14,117 bases of DNA from IMG/VR virus record IMGVR_UViG_2778261154_000002; one strand, 5' to 3'. The stretch comes from a virus. Lineage: Duplodnaviria; Heunggongvirae; Uroviricota; Caudoviricetes. This document shows, piece by piece, positions 1,760 through 11,601 of this stretch. A program made the position numbers and the translations under genes. The notes beneath the pieces are model-generated. The model was given only the letters and a program-made list of their open reading frames with translations, made no database searches and was not told the origin of the DNA. The stretch's first letter is position 1. Each line of letters opens with the position of its first letter.

Positions 1760-3113
1760 TTTCTGGACTATGCGGGCACGTAACAAAGTGCTTTATGGTG
1801 GTCGGTCATCGTCAAAATCATGGGATGCCGCTGGCATTGCCATATTTCTGTCGAATAAATACACCCTGCGTTTTTGTTGTGCCCGTCAGATCCAGAATAA
1901 AATCGAAGAGTCGGTGTATACCCTGCTCAAAATTCAGATAGACAGGTTTGGTCTGCGGCACCGTTTCCGTATTCTGAACAACAAAATCATAAACCGGGTT
2001 ACTGGCTCGGAATTTGTTTTTTATGGATTATGGCGCAACATCGAAGAAATTAAGTCACTGGAGGGGATCGATGTGTTGTGGCTGGAAGAAGCCCACGCAC
2101 TGACGGAATACCAGTGGAAAATTCTGGAGCCAACGATCCGTAAAGAGGGTTCGGAATGCTGGTTCATATTCAACCCCGGACTTGTTACTGATTTCGTCTG
2201 GCGCAACTTCGTTGTTGATCCGCCCGAAGGCACTCTCATCCGCAAAATTAACTATGACGAAAATCCGTTTCTGTCTGACACCATGCTTAAGGTTATCGAC
2301 GCGGCGCGACGCCGTGATCCGGATGGTTTTAAACATGTGTATGAGGGCGTTCCGGAGTCTGATGATGATGCGGCAATCATCAAACTGTCTTGGATAGAAG
2401 CCGCAGTGGATGCGCACAAAACGTTAAATTTCGAACCCAGTGGAAGAAAGCGTATTGGCTTTGACGTGGCTGACAGTGGTACAGATAAGTGCGCTAACGT
2501 TTACCGTCACGGATCCGTTGTTTTCTGGGCCGACGAATGGAAGGCCAAAGAAGATGAATTACTGAAGAGCTGCCAGCGTACTTATCAGGCGGCGCTGGAG
2601 CGTGAAGCAGATATTGTTTACGACTCTATCGGTGTTGGTGCGTCTGCCGGTGCTAAATTCTCTGAAATTAACGCTGACCGGAAGAGCGAGAACGCATACG
2701 CGCGACGTGTGAATTACCAGAGGTTTAACGCCGGTGCTGGTGTGCATGAGCCAGATGACGAGTACAACGGCATCCCCAACAAAGACTTTTTCGCAAATCT
2801 TAAGGCTCAGGCATGGTGGCTGGTGGCTGACCGTTTCAGAAATACGTTTAACGCCATTAACAACGGAGAACAGTATCCTGTGGATGAGCTGATCAGCATA
2901 GATTCTCGTTGTCCGTTGCTTGAAAAGCTGAAACTGGAACTGACAACACCTCATCGTGATTTCGACCGTAACGGACGTGTGATGGTCGAAAGTAAAAAAG
3001 ACCTCGCAAAACGCGAGATACCGTCACCAAACGTTGCTGATGCATTCATTATGGCCTTCGCGCCAATCGATACATCGCTGGATATCTGGGAACAGCTGGG
3101 GAGACAGGCCTGA
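1710..3113 (+). CDS. terL: Phage terminase large subunit (PBSX / Terminase_3-like ATPase-nuclease)
   Basis: Walker A-like VLYGGRSSSKSWD near the N-terminus and a Walker B-like VLWLEEAH. Stop TGA at 3111-3113 overlaps the portal ATG. The start is ambiguous: in-frame ATGs at 1671, 1683, 1686, 1692, 1710 and 1770. I chose 1710 (GGAGAG upstream) because the conserved-looking LNPALRSFW segment precedes the 1770 ATG; this gives a 50-nt overlap with terS. Confidence 0.85.
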   Translation: MTSTLTSKPTLNPALRSFWTMRARNKVLYGGRSSSKSWDAAGIAIFLSNKYTLRFCCARQIQNKIEESVYTLLKIQIDRFGLRHRFRILNNKIINRVTGSEFVFYGLWRNIEEIKSLEGIDVLWLEEAHALTEYQWKILEPTIRKEGSECWFIFNPGLVTDFVWRNFVVDPPEGTLIRKINYDENPFLSDTMLKVIDAARRRDPDGFKHVYEGVPESDDDAAIIKLSWIEAAVDAHKTLNFEPSGRKRIGFDVADSGTDKCANVYRHGSVVFWADEWKAKEDELLKSCQRTYQAALEREADIVYDSIGVGASAGAKFSEINADRKSENAYARRVNYQRFNAGAGVHEPDDEYNGIPNKDFFANLKAQAWWLVADRFRNTFNAINNGEQYPVDELISIDSRCPLLEKLKLELTTPHRDFDRNGRVMVESKKDLAKREIPSPNVADAFIMAFAPIDTSLDIWEQLGRQA

Positions 3114-4579
3114 TGGCACGAAACAAACAAGCCCTGCGGCGAACTGTGCAGGCCACAGCTGATGGTTATGAGAATTTTATTGCCCGCGTAGGGATGCAGA
3201 CACCTAACCAGCACTCAGCATCCACCTACCGGGCTAATTTCACCAGTCGTAACCGCATGCTGGTGGAATGGTCCTATCGTTCATCCTGGATCATCGGCGA
3301 AGCAGTCGATGCTATCCCGGATGATATGACCCGCAAAGGCATTCGCATCACTTCGGAAATTGATGCAAAAGATCGTGGCATTCTCGAATCACAACTGGAT
3401 GAGTTGCAAATCTGGGATGCGCTGAATGACGTGCTGAAATGGTCGCGCCTCTACGGCGGCGCGGTGGGTTTCATCATGATTGAGGGGCAGGCACCAATGA
3501 CCCCGCTGCGACCCGAAACCATCGGTAAGGGCAAGTTTAAGGGGATTCTCCCGCTCGACCGCTGGATGGTCGACCCGGCACTGACCCGCCGCATTAAAGA
3601 TATGGGGCCGGACCTGGGTAAACCTGAGTTTTACGATGTGGTGACCACAGCAACGGGAATTCCTGCCTGGCGCATTCATCACAGTCGCCTGATTCGCTTT
3701 GATGGCGTCACGTTGCCATTTCAGCAGAAGATGACCGAGAACGAATGGGGAATGTCGGTTGTAGAGCGTATCTGGGATCGTCTTACCGCGTTCGACAGCG
3801 CTACTGTCGGCGCGGCGCAGCTGGTCTACAAGGCGCATTTGCGTACCTACAGCGTGGAGAAGCTACGCGAGCTTATCGCACTTGGTGGTCCTGCGTATGA
3901 AGCGTTGCTGAAGAATATCGACCTGATTCGACAGTTCCAGAGTAATGAAGGCATGACGCTCATGGACTCGCGGGATAAGTTTGAAACCCATCAGTACAGC
4001 TTCAGTGGTCTGGATGACATCCTTTCGCAGTTTGCAGAACAGATTAGTGGCGCTGTTGGTATCCCACTGGTGCGGTTGTTCGGACAGTCCCCGAAAGGAT
4101 TTTCTACCGGTGATGCAGACCTTGCCAACTATTACGATCGCATCAGTTCGTTGCAGGAGAGGCGTTTACGTCTTCCGGTGCGGCGGATACTGGACATCAT
4201 GCATCGTTCGGAACTTGGCAAGCCGCTGCCGGACGATTTCACGTTTGAGTTTAACCCGCTCTGGCAAATGTCTGATGTCGATCGCTCAACGGTGGCGTTA
4301 AACACCACCAACGCAATCAGTACGGCGCTGGGTGATGGTCTGATGACACTGAAAGCCGCTATGACTGATTTGCGAGAAAATTCTGACGTAACCGGCATCG
4401 GGGCATCCATTACCGACGAGGACATCGAGAATGCCGAAGATGAAGCGCCGCCCGGCATCGGCGAACCTGATGACGAACCGCAGGAGCCGTCAGGCGGAAA
4501 TCCGGTATCGAACCAGCCTACGCAGGATAGCGAGGGCGGTCGGAGACATCGTAAATGGTCGCTACGATGGTTCAAATGA
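3113..4579 (+). CDS. Phage portal protein (DUF1073-like)
   Basis: 488-aa ORF translationally coupled to terL (TGATG overlap). Position after the terminase, size and the acidic C-terminal tail (EDIENAEDEAPPGIGEPDDEPQEPSGG) are typical of portal proteins. Family assignment is by resemblance only. Confidence 0.85.
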   Translation: MARNKQALRRTVQATADGYENFIARVGMQTPNQHSASTYRANFTSRNRMLVEWSYRSSWIIGEAVDAIPDDMTRKGIRITSEIDAKDRGILESQLDELQIWDALNDVLKWSRLYGGAVGFIMIEGQAPMTPLRPETIGKGKFKGILPLDRWMVDPALTRRIKDMGPDLGKPEFYDVVTTATGIPAWRIHHSRLIRFDGVTLPFQQKMTENEWGMSVVERIWDRLTAFDSATVGAAQLVYKAHLRTYSVEKLRELIALGGPAYEALLKNIDLIRQFQSNEGMTLMDSRDKFETHQYSFSGLDDILSQFAEQISGAVGIPLVRLFGQSPKGFSTGDADLANYYDRISSLQERRLRLPVRRILDIMHRSELGKPLPDDFTFEFNPLWQMSDVDRSTVALNTTNAISTALGDGLMTLKAAMTDLRENSDVTGIGASITDEDIENAEDEAPPGIGEPDDEPQEPSGGNPVSNQPTQDSEGGRRHRKWSLRWFK

Positions 4580-5213
4580 CAGTATCACGGAAATTATTGC
4601 GGCGCTGGAGCGTTACAGTGAAATCATCACCCCCTGGGCGACAAAGGTCGCGGAAAACTTTACTGCGGACCTAACCCGGCAGAACGAGAAAGTTTGGCGG
4701 CAACACAGCAAGAACATCAGTCGCGAGCTCCGCAATCTTGTGGAAAGCGCTCCTGTGGGCCAGGTGATGCAATCCATCATCGCCGAACAGGTCAAGTACA
4801 TCAAATCTCTGCCTCTCGAGGCCGCAGACAGGGTGTACGACATCCAGAACAAAGCGATAGAGGCTGTTGTCACCGGTGGTCGGGCGGAGCAGTTTGCTAA
4901 AGAGATTGCATCTACCGGCGATGTTGCTAAGTCTAGGGCCGATCTGATTGCCCGAACGGAACTGGGAAGAGCAACGGGCGCGCTGGATATGGCCCGAGCG
5001 ATAGCTATTGGCTCGGATGGTTATATTTGGCGTACAGCCGATGATGGCGATGTCCGAGATTCCCACGATCACATGAAAGGTAAATTCGTCCGCTGGGATT
5101 CACCTCCAACTTTGGACGGCATGACCGGCCACGCGGGCGAGCTGCCAAACTGCCGCTGCTATAAAGAGATCGTGTTTGTTCGCGTTCCATTCGCAATGAA
5201 AAGGGCAGCATAA
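4431..5213 (+). CDS. Phage head morphogenesis protein, SPP1 gp7 / Mu F-like (minor head protein)
   Basis: 260-aa ORF ending in the family-typical C-terminus (DVRDSHDHMKGKFVRWDSPP ... ELPNCRCYKEI). ATG at 4431 is preceded by GAGGA. The start lies 149 nt inside the portal ORF in another frame; alternative in-frame ATGs are at 4440 and 4470. Confidence 0.75.
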   Translation: MPKMKRRPASANLMTNRRSRQAEIRYRTSLRRIARAVGDIVNGRYDGSNDSITEIIAALERYSEIITPWATKVAENFTADLTRQNEKVWRQHSKNISRELRNLVESAPVGQVMQSIIAEQVKYIKSLPLEAADRVYDIQNKAIEAVVTGGRAEQFAKEIASTGDVAKSRADLIARTELGRATGALDMARAIAIGSDGYIWRTADDGDVRDSHDHMKGKFVRWDSPPTLDGMTGHAGELPNCRCYKEIVFVRVPFAMKRAA

Positions 5214-11150: not shown

Positions 11151-11160
11151 GGGGAAGTGA

Positions 11161-11601
11161 ATGTCTACCTATTCTTTTATGGATGTCACTGCGACGCTGA
11201 CCGGGCCGACCGGTTCGATTGACCTCGGGTACGGTTCGGCAAGTTCTGAAGAGGGGATTGTGGTTGCGATGGGCGGTCCTAAAAACACCATGACCATCGG
11301 TGCTGATGGCGAAGTGATGCACAGTCTCCATGCAGATAAAAGCGGGACGATTACCGTTAACCTTCTGAAGACATCACCGACAAATAAAAAATTGTCGCTG
11401 GCGTATAACGCACAGAGCCAGTCTTCTGCCACATGGGGGAATAACGTTATTGTGATCCGAAACAAGGTCAGCGGCGACATCATCACGGCACGCAGTGTTG
11501 CGTTCCAGAAACAACCGGATAACGCCAACGCTAAAACCGGTAATACGATGCCGTGGGTGCTTGACTGCGGCAAGATTGACCAGGTTCTCGGGGAGTTTTA
11601 A
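11161..11601 (+). CDS. Phage tail tube protein (DUF3277-like)
   Basis: 146-aa ORF with AAGGGGAAG RBS, directly after the sheath gene and before the chaperone and tape measure genes. Confidence 0.75.
   Translation: MSTYSFMDVTATLTGPTGSIDLGYGSASSEEGIVVAMGGPKNTMTIGADGEVMHSLHADKSGTITVNLLKTSPTNKKLSLAYNAQSQSSATWGNNVIVIRNKVSGDIITARSVAFQKQPDNANAKTGNTMPWVLDCGKIDQVLGEF

What the first reader, a model, noticed from the sequence alone, without database searches (positions are those of the whole stretch)
3113..11601. Structural module built largely from poorly characterised protein families
Apart from the terminase and MuF-like protein, the portal, protease/scaffold, capsid, connector, sheath and tube candidates resemble domain-of-unknown-function families (DUF1073, DUF2213, DUF2184, DUF4054, DUF3383, DUF3277) rather than the well-studied P2, Mu or T4 families. 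If confirmed, this prophage belongs to a little-studied myovirus lineage whose virion proteins lack experimental characterisation.
Basis: inference. Interest (0 to 1): 0.4.

Follow-up and report, generated by a model that had tools for sequence, protein, structure and literature searches.

The report
Pam3/XM1-type myophage virion genes in prophage

Summary
Observation confirmed. Window 3113-11601 runs exactly from the portal start to the tube stop and holds 13 co-oriented ORFs. All six named DUF families hit at E 5e-28 to 3e-106. Pfam has since renamed three: DUF1073 is Phage_portal_3, DUF2184 is Major_capside, DUF3277 is KPP10_Orf10.

Interpretation partly supported. It is a prophage myovirus module: 100% identical to E. 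coli VL40, 96.6% to deposited Escherichia phages vB_EcoM-606R2/689R2/611R5/683R1, and 82% to Salmonella phage SEN34 (genus Brunovirus), which has a contractile tail by EM.

The families are no longer uncharacterised. Portal, capsid, adaptor, connector, terminator, sheath and tube match solved cryo-EM chains of Pam3, XM1 or E217/Pa193. The cement protein matches the Pfam families built on them. Gene order is that of Pam3.

Still unstudied are the MuF-like protein, a 73-aa ORF, the 184-aa tail-completion-like protein and the DUF2213 protein.

The host prophage is defective (IS150 in the tape measure, IS2 in baseplate J) and carries ipaH. Low interest.

The parts
995..1759 (+). Small terminase subunit candidate (context, upstream of the finding)
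   Evidence: PHROG 370 'terminase small subunit', 2.2e-94. Weak HTH hits in Pfam. No counterpart in 606R2 and only residues 1-64 alignable to SEN34.
1710..3113 (+). Large terminase subunit, Terminase_3/PBSX type (context)
   Evidence: PF04466, 4.5e-38. RefSeq start at 1710. Only 36% aa identity, C-terminal half only, to TerL of 606R2 and SEN34. The mosaic joint therefore lies at about 3113.
3113..4579 (+). Portal protein (ex-DUF1073)
   Evidence: PF06381, 3.3e-106. PHROG 146. PDB matches: Pam3 portal 8hds 1.2e-36, E217 gp19 8fvh 4.6e-14, XM1 7kln 3.5e-6. dN/dS 0.06-0.09.
4431..5213 (+). MuF-like head-morphogenesis (minor head) protein; its 5' end overlaps the portal 3' end by 149 nt
   Evidence: PF04233, 1.5e-18. 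PHROG 324, 1.1e-84, aligned from residue 2 of the 4470 start. The ATG at 4431 and the EIRYRTSLRRIA motif are conserved in 606R2 and SEN34, and the overlap also exists in Acinetobacter phage BUCTT20. No PDB sequence hit.
5217..6437 (+). DUF2213 protein: predicted prohead serine protease (residues 1-180), acidic disordered linker (about 185-300), helical scaffold-like C-terminal domain (300-405)
6441..6947 (+). Capsid cement / decoration protein (beta-tulip family)
   Evidence: PF23982 XM1_gp53_minor_capsid, 4.4e-30, and PF22758 Phage_cement (E217 gp24/Pam3 gp6), 2.8e-21. 100% aa identity to 606R2.
6959..7900 (+). Major capsid protein (ex-DUF2184), HK97 fold by homology
   Evidence: PF09950, 6.8e-88. 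PHROG 264. Pam3 major capsid 8hdt, 4.7e-18.
7942..8163 (+). 73-aa ORF of unknown role ('STY1053 family')
   Evidence: No Pfam hit. PHROG 6497, unknown function, 5.9e-52. Identical protein in 606R2; only residues 1-50 align to SEN34, whose gene is annotated at 133 aa.
8129..8536 (+).
   Evidence: PF13262, 5e-28. E217 gp27 / Pa193 gp28 head-to-tail adaptor 8fvh_N, 8.9e-9.
8533..9087 (+). 184-aa tail-completion / Neck1-like protein; no characterised relative
9074..9463 (+). Connector / head-closure protein
   Evidence: Eight-phage profile A3: Pam3 connector 8hdr_A 3.7e-15, head-closure proteins 9mt4_E and 9c39_E, XM1 head completion 7kjk_A4 0.037.
9453..10001 (+). Neck / tail terminator (TTG start as in RefSeq; the open frame runs back to ATG 9393)
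   Evidence: PF23961 Phage_tail_terminator_9, 4.5e-34. Profile A4: Pam3 terminator 8hdr_G 8e-15, XM1 terminator 7kjk_A5 1.1e-6.
10005..11150 (+). Contractile tail sheath (DUF3383)
   Evidence: PF11863, 1.3e-100. PHROG 205 'tail sheath'. XM1 gp6 7kh1 6.1e-38, Pam3 sheath 8hdr_M 5e-23.
11161..11601 (+). Tail tube (ex-DUF3277, KPP10_Orf10)
   Evidence: PF11681, 1.7e-60. Pam3 tube 8hdr_1 8.5e-9; tube proteins 9mt4_P and 9c39_G about 3e-6.
11605..12254 (+). Tail assembly chaperone (11605-12057) with a predicted -1 frameshift extension (downstream of the finding)
   Evidence: PF21822 Phage_TAC_15, 4e-31. In-phase slippery A AAT TTT / T TTT TTG at 12003-12012, and the -1 frame is open 11952-12254. 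RefSeq annotates the distal piece as DUF6889.
12235..13403 (+). N-terminal about 390 codons of the tape-measure / lytic-transglycosylase gene, cut by IS150
   Evidence: PHROG 2276 'tape measure', 1e-182. Homology to the uninterrupted gene in FDAARGOS_944 ends at 13403. RefSeq marks it as a pseudogene in two pieces around IS150.
13404..14117 (-). Part of an IS150 (IS3-family) element inserted in the tape-measure gene
   Evidence: rve/rve_2/rve_3 integrase core domains in ORF 13428-14033(-). RefSeq: 'IS3-like element IS150 family transposase'.

Best explanation
Window 3113-11601 is the head-neck-tail-shaft part of the late operon of a temperate contractile-tailed phage. Its virion belongs to the Pam3/XM1/E217 structural type.

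Inferred assembly pathway:
1. The portal (3113-4579) nucleates a prohead.
2. The prohead is built from the HK97-fold capsid protein (6959-7900) around the DUF2213 protein (5217-6437).
3. I predict that DUF2213 is a self-contained protease-scaffold. It has an N-terminal assemblin/T4-gp21-fold serine protease with His79/Ser140/His164, an acidic disordered linker, and a helical C-terminal domain that binds the inner capsid surface. It would digest itself, and possibly the capsid N-terminus, before DNA packaging.
4. The MuF-like protein (4431-5213) is a minor head protein.
5. After packaging by the Terminase_3 enzyme encoded upstream, trimers of the cement protein (6441-6947) lock the expanded shell.
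6. The neck is closed by 12 adaptor (8129-8536), 6 connector (9074-9463) and 6 terminator (9453-10001) subunits.
7. The terminator caps both the tube (11161-11601) and the sheath (10005-11150).
8. The 184-aa protein (8533-9087) is a tail-completion-type factor whose place in the virion is unknown.

Shown here: the family memberships, the gene order, gene intactness and purifying selection. Inferred by homology with solved virions: the stoichiometries and the order of assembly. Prediction only: the protease activity.

In this host the module is stranded in a defective, IS-riddled, ipaH-carrying prophage.
For: - Pfam and PHROG assignments for every ORF.
- PDB sequence or profile matches to Pam3, XM1 and E217/Pa193 chains for portal, capsid, adaptor, connector, terminator, sheath and tube.
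- Gene order identical to the Pam3 gp3-gp14 order given in PMC9942802.
- The same order, allowing for inserted genes, in phages of Acinetobacter, Vibrio (CP-T1), Klebsiella, Rhizobium, Proteus and Bdellovibrio.
- 96.6% nucleotide identity to four deposited Escherichia phage genomes and 82% to SEN34. SEN34 is EM-verified as contractile-tailed and temperate.
- dN/dS 0.03-0.19 with no disruptions.
- Prophage context and IS damage.
Against: - No Pfam peptidase family matches any of 51 DUF2213 proteins, apart from one Phage_GPO hit at E=0.051.
- I could not superpose the model on T4 gp21, so the geometry of the proposed triad is unverified.
- The Pa193 authors treat the homologue purely as a scaffold. 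The XM1 authors proposed a different protease candidate, gp46.
- Roles of orf73 and the 184-aa protein are not established.
- In strain VL40 no virion can be made: the tape measure and baseplate J are interrupted.
Confidence: 0.88

Rival explanations
1. One reading: the module belongs to a little-studied myovirus lineage whose virion proteins have no experimental characterisation.
For: - None of the structure papers read and none of the PDB matches concerns the enterobacterial temperate branch (SEN34, 606R2).
- Most of these genes are 'hypothetical protein' in the phage records.
- DUF2213, DUF4054 and DUF3383 are still DUFs in Pfam.
- A literature search on the six DUF names finds only annotation mentions.
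Against: - Seven of the virion components match solved cryo-EM chains by sequence or profile, and the cement protein matches Pfam families built on solved proteins.
- Three of the six DUFs have been renamed after characterised proteins.
- The family includes Pbunavirus, Felixounavirus and CP-T1.
Confidence: 0.2
2. The DUF2213 protein is only a scaffolding protein, with a non-catalytic N-terminal domain. Maturation proteolysis, if any, is done by another gene, as proposed for XM1 gp46.
For: - Pa193 gp24 is described only as a putative scaffold.
- The XM1 paper names a Spartan-like gp46 as its protease candidate.
- Foldseek gives no protease hit.
- There is no Pfam peptidase match.
Against: - His79/Ser140/His164 are near-invariant across 150 clusters whose listed identities to the query are mostly 35-50%, which is hard to explain for a purely structural domain.
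- No other protease-like ORF lies between the terminase and the tape measure in the window.
- PHROG families are labelled 'head maturation protease'.
Confidence: 0.15
3. The intact head-to-tube genes are retained because the host has domesticated them, for example as a tailocin or a gene-transfer-agent-like particle, and are not a decaying phage remnant.
For: - All 13 ORFs are intact in a prophage that is otherwise hit by at least five IS elements.
- The same prophage with different lesions occurs in another strain.
Against: - The tape measure and baseplate J are interrupted in VL40. The fibre gene is broken in both strains, and the 184-aa gene is frameshifted in FDAARGOS_944. No tail can form.
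- Near-identical modules sit in deposited phage genomes.
- The low dN/dS is measured against phage genomes and reflects phage-lineage history.
Confidence: 0.03

Closest known systems
Cyanophage Pam3, 'minimal myophage' (PNAS 2023, PMC9942802; PDB 8hds, 8hdt, 8hdr, 8hdw)
   Same: - Same gene order: portal, cement, capsid, adaptor, connector, terminator, sheath, tube.
- Direct sequence or profile matches for portal (1e-36), capsid (5e-18), connector (4e-15), terminator (8e-15), sheath (5e-23) and tube (9e-9).
- The cement protein is in the Pfam family defined on Pam3 gp6.
- The downstream baseplate gene set is also the simple type.
   Different: - Distant in sequence; several matches needed profiles.
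- Different host phylum.
- This one is integrated as a prophage with lambdoid early genes.
- Pam3's disulfide-linked globular fibres are replaced here by enterobacterial fibre and fibre-assembly genes.
Vibrio phage XM1 (Viruses 2023, PMC10457771; PDB 7kh1, 7kjk, 7kln)
   Same: - Best PDB match for the sheath (6e-38).
- Portal and terminator also match; the head-completion protein matches only weakly (E=0.037).
- The cement protein matches PF23982 XM1_gp53 at 4e-30.
   Different: - XM1 has a collar-spike protein, gp40, on its neck. No ORF in the window matched that chain in the PDB searches or a collar/spike family in Pfam or PHROGs.
- The XM1 authors did not identify the scaffold and proposed an unrelated protease.
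Pseudomonas Pbunavirus phages E217 and Pa193 (PMC10329688, PMC11456595; PDB 8fvh, 9b40-9b45)
   Same: - Adaptor (DUF4054) matches E217 gp27 / Pa193 gp28 (9e-9). The portal also matches.
- The DUF2213 profile matches Pa193 gp24 'scaffolding protein' (3e-11).
   Different: - E217 has a T=9 capsid of 535 capsid-protein copies and a tail of about 1500 A.
- The portal is 765 aa against 488 aa here.
- gp24 is 478 aa against 406 aa here.
Salmonella phage SEN34, genus Brunovirus (PMC5261728), and Escherichia phages vB_EcoM-606R2/689R2/611R5/683R1
   Same: - Closest relatives: 82% identity over 78% of the span for SEN34, and 96.6% over 100% of 3113-11601 for the Escherichia phages.
- Every ORF is colinear and full-length.
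- SEN34 is temperate, mitomycin-inducible and contractile-tailed by EM.
   Different: - The terminase genes are not shared.
- The MuF allele is divergent (dS 0.85).
- The early region in VL40 is Rac/lambda-like, whereas 606R2 carries its own DNA polymerase and helicase.
- The VL40 copy is IS-disrupted and carries ipaH.
Protease-scaffold fusions: T4 gp21 (5jbl), herpesvirus assemblin/UL26-type proteins, P2 gpO (the last two from my own knowledge of the literature)
   Same: - The predicted N-domain fold matches T4 gp21 and three herpesvirus assemblins.
- Conserved His...Ser...His, with Ser140 to His164 spaced by 24 residues. HCMV has Ser132/His157 (recalled, not tested here).
- The layout of protease, then linker, then capsid-binding scaffold is that of herpesvirus UL26 and P2 gpO.
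   Different: - No detectable sequence similarity to any peptidase Pfam family.
- Activity is untested.
- Foldseek does not recover the match.

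Membership tests
   Bits against cut-off: 355.4/33.8, 145/22, 294.7/26.8, 97.8/23.9, 338.1/34.9, 203.5/25.
Pam3/XM1/E217-type myophage structural module | Portal, HK97-type capsid protein, sheath and tube homologous to the solved chains | tested here: met
   phmmer against the PDB: 8hds 1.2e-36, 8hdt 4.7e-18, 7kh1 6.1e-38, 8hdr_M 5e-23, 8hdr_1 8.5e-9.
Pam3/XM1/E217-type myophage structural module | Beta-tulip cement protein encoded immediately upstream of the capsid gene | tested here: met
   PF23982 4.4e-30 and PF22758 2.8e-21; the gene at 6441-6947 directly precedes the capsid gene at 6959. The trimeric binding mode is not testable here.
Pam3/XM1/E217-type myophage structural module | Three-layer neck: adaptor, connector/head-closure, single terminator capping tube and sheath | tested here: met
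   Adaptor matches 8fvh_N at 8.9e-9. Connector profile matches 8hdr_A at 3.7e-15. Terminator profile matches 8hdr_G at 8e-15, plus PF23961.
Pam3/XM1/E217-type myophage structural module | Simple baseplate: tube initiator, plug, hub, spike, sheath initiator, two wedge proteins | tested here: inconclusive
   This lies outside the window. In locus L002 RefSeq annotates baseplate protein, plug, a hypothetical protein, spike, sheath initiator, baseplate J (split by IS2) and DUF2612 in that order. I did not test these proteins myself.
Pam3/XM1/E217-type myophage structural module | Contractile-tail virion morphology | not testable with these tools
   EM of SEN34 shows an icosahedral head and a long contractile tail (PMC5261728). 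The VL40 prophage cannot make tails.
Genus Brunovirus (type species SEN34) | Genome-wide nucleotide identity of about 70% or more (ICTV genus convention, from my own knowledge) | tested here: inconclusive
   Only the structural span was compared: 82% identity over 78% of 3113-11601. The terminase is not shared and the annotated early-gene sets are not the same, so whole-genome membership is doubtful.
Assemblin / T4 gp21-fold prohead serine proteases | The characteristic protease fold | tested here: inconclusive
Assemblin / T4 gp21-fold prohead serine proteases | Conserved catalytic Ser and His (plus a third residue) | tested here: met
   H79 145/146, S140 144/145 and H164 143/144 among aligned representatives; all three invariant in the 51-sequence alignment A2.
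Assemblin / T4 gp21-fold prohead serine proteases | Proteolytic processing of scaffold or capsid protein | not testable with these tools
   Needs biochemistry or virion mass spectrometry.
P2, Mu or T4 virion protein families | Pfam or PHROG match to the P2, Mu or T4 portal, capsid, sheath or tube families | tested here: not met
   No such family appears at E<=0.01 for any ORF. The only Mu-named hit is Phage_Mu_F.

The most novel reading that the evidence does not exclude
DUF2213, a family with at least 6,400 clusters at 50% identity, still a DUF in Pfam, is the missing prohead protease-plus-scaffold of the whole Pam3/XM1/E217/Felix-type group. It would be a herpesvirus-UL26-like fusion of a Ser/His/His assemblin-fold protease to a capsid-binding scaffold. 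The XM1 paper reported that gene as unidentified, and the Pa193 paper describes its DUF2213 protein, gp24, only as a scaffold.
Probability: 0.7. Interest if true: 0.3.

Novelty: already known. Interest (0 to 1): 0.15.

Why it matters
Mostly as a correction. These 'DUF' virion genes can now be annotated by function from solved structures, and the prophage is an ordinary decayed one.

The useful residue is a short list of what is still uncharacterised in this widespread module type:
- the DUF2213 protein, with a testable Ser140/His79/His164 protease prediction;
- the 184-aa tail-completion-like protein;
- the 73-aa ORF;
- the conserved overlap between the portal and MuF genes.

SEN34 and the vB_EcoM-606R2 group would be convenient E. 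coli/Salmonella systems in which to test them.

Tried and rejected
- Direct phmmer of the cement protein, 184-aa ORF, 129-aa ORF and terminator against the PDB at E<=10 gave nothing. Profiles from eight phages then resolved the connector and the terminator but not the 184-aa protein.
- The search for related loci with the capsid protein returned only 99-100% identical IMG/VR contigs, which were useless for profiles.
- The top 120 hits of the search for homologous proteins for DUF2213 were all at least 76% identical. Diversity came from the representative search instead.
- Foldseek of the full DUF2213 model found no significant hit.
- A Pfam scan of 51 DUF2213 proteins found no peptidase family.
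- I considered a programmed frameshift fusing portal to MuF. MuF lies in the +1 frame, no supporting signal was sought, and the idea is left as a note.
- I considered domestication as a tailocin or GTA-like particle and rejected it because of the IS and frameshift lesions in essential tail genes.

Full report
**1. What is there**

The window is 100% identical to E. coli strain VL40 chromosome NZ_CM177011.1 1633972-1648088. On the + strand it holds an uninterrupted late-gene array:
- Rz fragment 2-199
- small terminase 995-1759
- large terminase 1710-3113
- portal 3113-4579
- MuF-like 4431/4470-5213
- DUF2213 protein 5217-6437
- cement protein 6441-6947
- major capsid protein 6959-7900
- 73-aa ORF 7942-8163
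- DUF4054 protein 8129-8536
- 184-aa ORF 8533-9087
- 129-aa ORF 9074-9463
- terminator 9453-10001
- sheath 10005-11150
- tube 11161-11601
- tail assembly chaperone 11605-12057
- tape-measure gene from 12235

The finding's coordinates are exactly portal start to tube stop.

**2. Check of the observation**

- PF06381: 3.3e-106
- PF09979: 2.8e-42
- PF09950: 6.8e-88
- PF13262: 5e-28
- PF11863: 1.3e-100
- PF11681: 1.7e-60

Three of them now carry functional names in Pfam: Phage_portal_3, Major_capside and KPP10_Orf10. RefSeq still prints the old DUF names for the identical proteins.

PHROGs agree on portal, head morphogenesis, major head protein, tail sheath, tail assembly chaperone and tape measure. 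No P2, Mu (other than Mu F) or T4 family is hit.

The ORFs are real, selected genes. Against phage vB_EcoM-606R2 and Salmonella phage SEN34 each aligns end to end with no stop or frameshift, and dN/dS is 0.03-0.19.

**3. Relatives**

- The 8.5-kb span is 96.6% identical over its full length to four deposited Escherichia phage genomes (vB_EcoM-606R2, -689R2, -611R5, -683R1). It is 86% identical to Citrobacter phage Omnitron, 82% to SEN34 and 79% to Hafnia phage yong1.
- SEN34 is the type of the ICTV genus Brunovirus. It was shown by EM to have an icosahedral head and a long contractile tail, while carrying lambda-like early genes (PMC5261728).
- 42 of 5,426 complete E. coli genomes hold at least 80% of the window.
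- 397 IMG/VR stretches encode a relative of the capsid protein, and the 80 loci kept are 99-100% identical.
- Sheath homologues (tblastn, E<=1e-5) occur in 858 of 50,697 phage records. These include Felixounavirus, Jedunavirus, Rosemountvirus, Kleczkowskavirus and the V. cholerae phage CP-T1.
- In phages of Acinetobacter, Vibrio, Klebsiella, Rhizobium, Proteus and Bdellovibrio the homologous genes keep the same relative order, with unrelated genes inserted in some.

**4. Are the families uncharacterised?**

No longer. PDB matches are:
- Portal: Pam3 8hds (1.2e-36), E217 gp19 8fvh, XM1 7kln.
- Capsid protein: Pam3 8hdt (4.7e-18).
- Sheath: XM1 gp6 7kh1 (6.1e-38), Pam3 8hdr (5e-23).
- Tube: Pam3 8hdr_1 (8.5e-9).
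- DUF4054 protein: E217 gp27 / Pa193 gp28 head-to-tail adaptor (8.9e-9).
- 129-aa protein, by a profile built from eight phages: Pam3 connector (3.7e-15) and several head-closure proteins.
- Terminator, by the same kind of profile: the Pam3 (8e-15) and XM1 (1.1e-6) terminators.

The cement protein belongs to Pfam families defined on XM1 gp53, E217 gp24 and Pam3 gp6.

The order portal, cement, capsid, adaptor, connector, terminator, sheath, tube is the Pam3 gp3-gp14 order (PMC9942802). The genes downstream in VL40 are annotated as a simple baseplate.

At family level it has been overtaken by cryo-EM work published from 2023 on (PMC9942802, PMC10457771, PMC10329688, PMC11456595, PMC12609058).

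**5. What remains uncharacterised**

- The MuF-like protein and the 73-aa ORF have no PDB sequence match.
- The 184-aa protein matches only PHROG 222, 'tail completion or Neck1'. It has no Pfam family, and none of its 120 listed homologues carries a precomputed Pfam domain. It has no credible PDB match even with a profile. Its AF2 model was poor and uninformative.
- The DUF2213 protein is discussed next.

**6. The DUF2213 protein**

The family is very large: 6,414 clusters at 50% identity with E<=1e-3.

The protein has three parts:
- a highly conserved N-domain (residues 1-185);
- an acidic, indel-rich linker;
- a conserved helical C-domain.

AF2 models residues 1-180 at pLDDT above 92. It leaves 219-257 and 275-292 disordered, and builds helices for 300-405.

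His79, Ser140 and His164 are invariant in a 51-sequence alignment and present in 143-145 of about 145 aligned cluster representatives. The Ser-to-His spacing of 24 residues recalls HCMV Ser132/His157 (my recollection, not tested here).

A profile of the family hits Pa193 gp24, the 'putative scaffolding protein', at 2.8e-11. Residues 286-326 of gp24 form a helix-turn-helix pentamer under the capsid five-fold vertices (PMC11456595).

I therefore predict a protease-scaffold fusion analogous to herpesvirus UL26 or P2 gpO. PHROG families and some phage records already label relatives 'head maturation protease'. The Pa193 paper does not mention protease activity. The XM1 paper states that its scaffold gene is unidentified and proposes another protease.

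Caveats:
- Foldseek on the whole model gave nothing significant.
- No Pfam peptidase family matches.
- I could not inspect the triad geometry.

**7. Context**

The module sits in a prophage that is flanked on its right by ybhB/bioA in VL40, and by ybhA on the left and pgl on the right in FDAARGOS_944. The prophage has:
- Rac/lambda-like early genes;
- four tRNA genes;
- a lysis cassette;
- a DedA-family gene on the opposite strand (window 288-800);
- an ipaH type-III effector gene at its right end.

In VL40 it is defective. IS600, IS4 and IS1 lie in the early region. IS150 splits the tape-measure gene (window about 13404 onward), IS2 splits baseplate J, and the fibre genes are truncated.

In FDAARGOS_944 the same prophage lacks these IS elements. 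There the 184-aa gene is frameshifted and the fibre gene is broken.

The genes within 3113-11601 are all intact in VL40.

**8. Mosaicism and small features**

- The terminase genes are not those of 606R2 or SEN34: TerL is 36% identical over its C-terminal half only, and TerS is essentially unrelated. Identity jumps to 96.6% from the portal start, so there is a recombination joint at about 3113.
- The MuF gene has dS 0.85 against 606R2, while its neighbours have about 0.06.
- The MuF frame is open and conserved from ATG 4431, which is 149 nt inside the portal gene. The same overlap exists in SEN34, 606R2 and Acinetobacter phage BUCTT20, where annotators chose later starts.
- The tail chaperone gene has an in-phase slippery run at 12003-12012 and a 101-codon open -1 frame reaching the tape-measure start. 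This is the usual G/GT arrangement.

**9. Verdict**

Its main point, lack of characterisation, is outdated.

This is a known, annotated, widespread module type, so interest is low. The only mildly new element is the structure-based argument that DUF2213 is the protease-scaffold of this group, which remains to be tested.

Noticed in passing
window 13404-14117 (ORF 13428-14033, minus strand): An IS150 (IS3-family) element is inserted in the tape-measure / lytic-transglycosylase gene. Homology to the uninterrupted gene of strain FDAARGOS_944 stops at 13403.
   Followed up: yes
window 288-800 (minus strand): A DedA/VTT-domain membrane protein gene lies on the opposite strand between the Rz lysis gene and the small terminase. 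It looks like a moron. Among the listed matches only the first three (H11-H13; the two examined carry ipaH) cover it; the other listed E. coli matches begin at 993.
   Followed up: partly
window 4431-4579: The MuF-like ORF overlaps the 3' end of the portal gene by 149 nt in the +1 frame. The upstream ATG and the motif EIRYRTSLRRIA are conserved in 606R2 and SEN34, and a similar overlap exists in Acinetobacter phage BUCTT20. Database annotations use later starts.
   Followed up: partly
window 11952-12254 (slippery site 12003-12012): A predicted -1 programmed frameshift in the tail assembly chaperone gene (A AAT TTT / T TTT TTG, in phase) opens a 101-codon frame ending just inside the tape-measure gene. 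RefSeq annotates only its distal part, as 'DUF6889'.
   Followed up: partly
window 995-3113 versus 3113 onward: The terminase genes are unrelated or only 36% identical to those of 606R2 and SEN34, while everything from the portal start is 96.6% (606R2) or 82% (SEN34) identical. This marks a mosaic joint at the TerL/portal boundary.
   Followed up: partly
window 4470-5213: The MuF gene has dS 0.85 against 606R2 while the flanking genes have dS of about 0.06. This is a recombination patch carrying a different allele.
   Followed up: no
L002 44209-45972 (VL40) and L091 41737-43563 (FDAARGOS_944): The prophage carries an ipaH (IpaHa / IpaHb) type-III effector E3-ligase gene at its right end, which suggests a Shigella/EIEC-type background. 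The VL40 copy is hit by IS600, IS4, IS1, IS150 and IS2.
   Followed up: partly
L091 26533-27086: In strain FDAARGOS_944 the 184-aa tail-completion-like gene is frameshifted, whereas it is intact in the window. The two copies of this prophage have decayed at different places.
   Followed up: no
window 7942-8163: The 73-aa ORF between the capsid and adaptor genes is about half the length of the gene annotated at the same position in SEN34 (133 aa). ORFs of about 128-143 aa are annotated just after the capsid gene in BUCTT20, CP-T1 and the Rhizobium phage. Only its first 50 residues align to SEN34.
   Followed up: no
literature, PMC8770471: A Tn-seq/CRISPRi study calls DUF2213 a 'putative essential domain' in Burkholderia cenocepacia K56-2. 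Given that this is a phage head-assembly domain, the growth phenotype is unexplained; a polar or prophage-related effect is possible.
   Followed up: no
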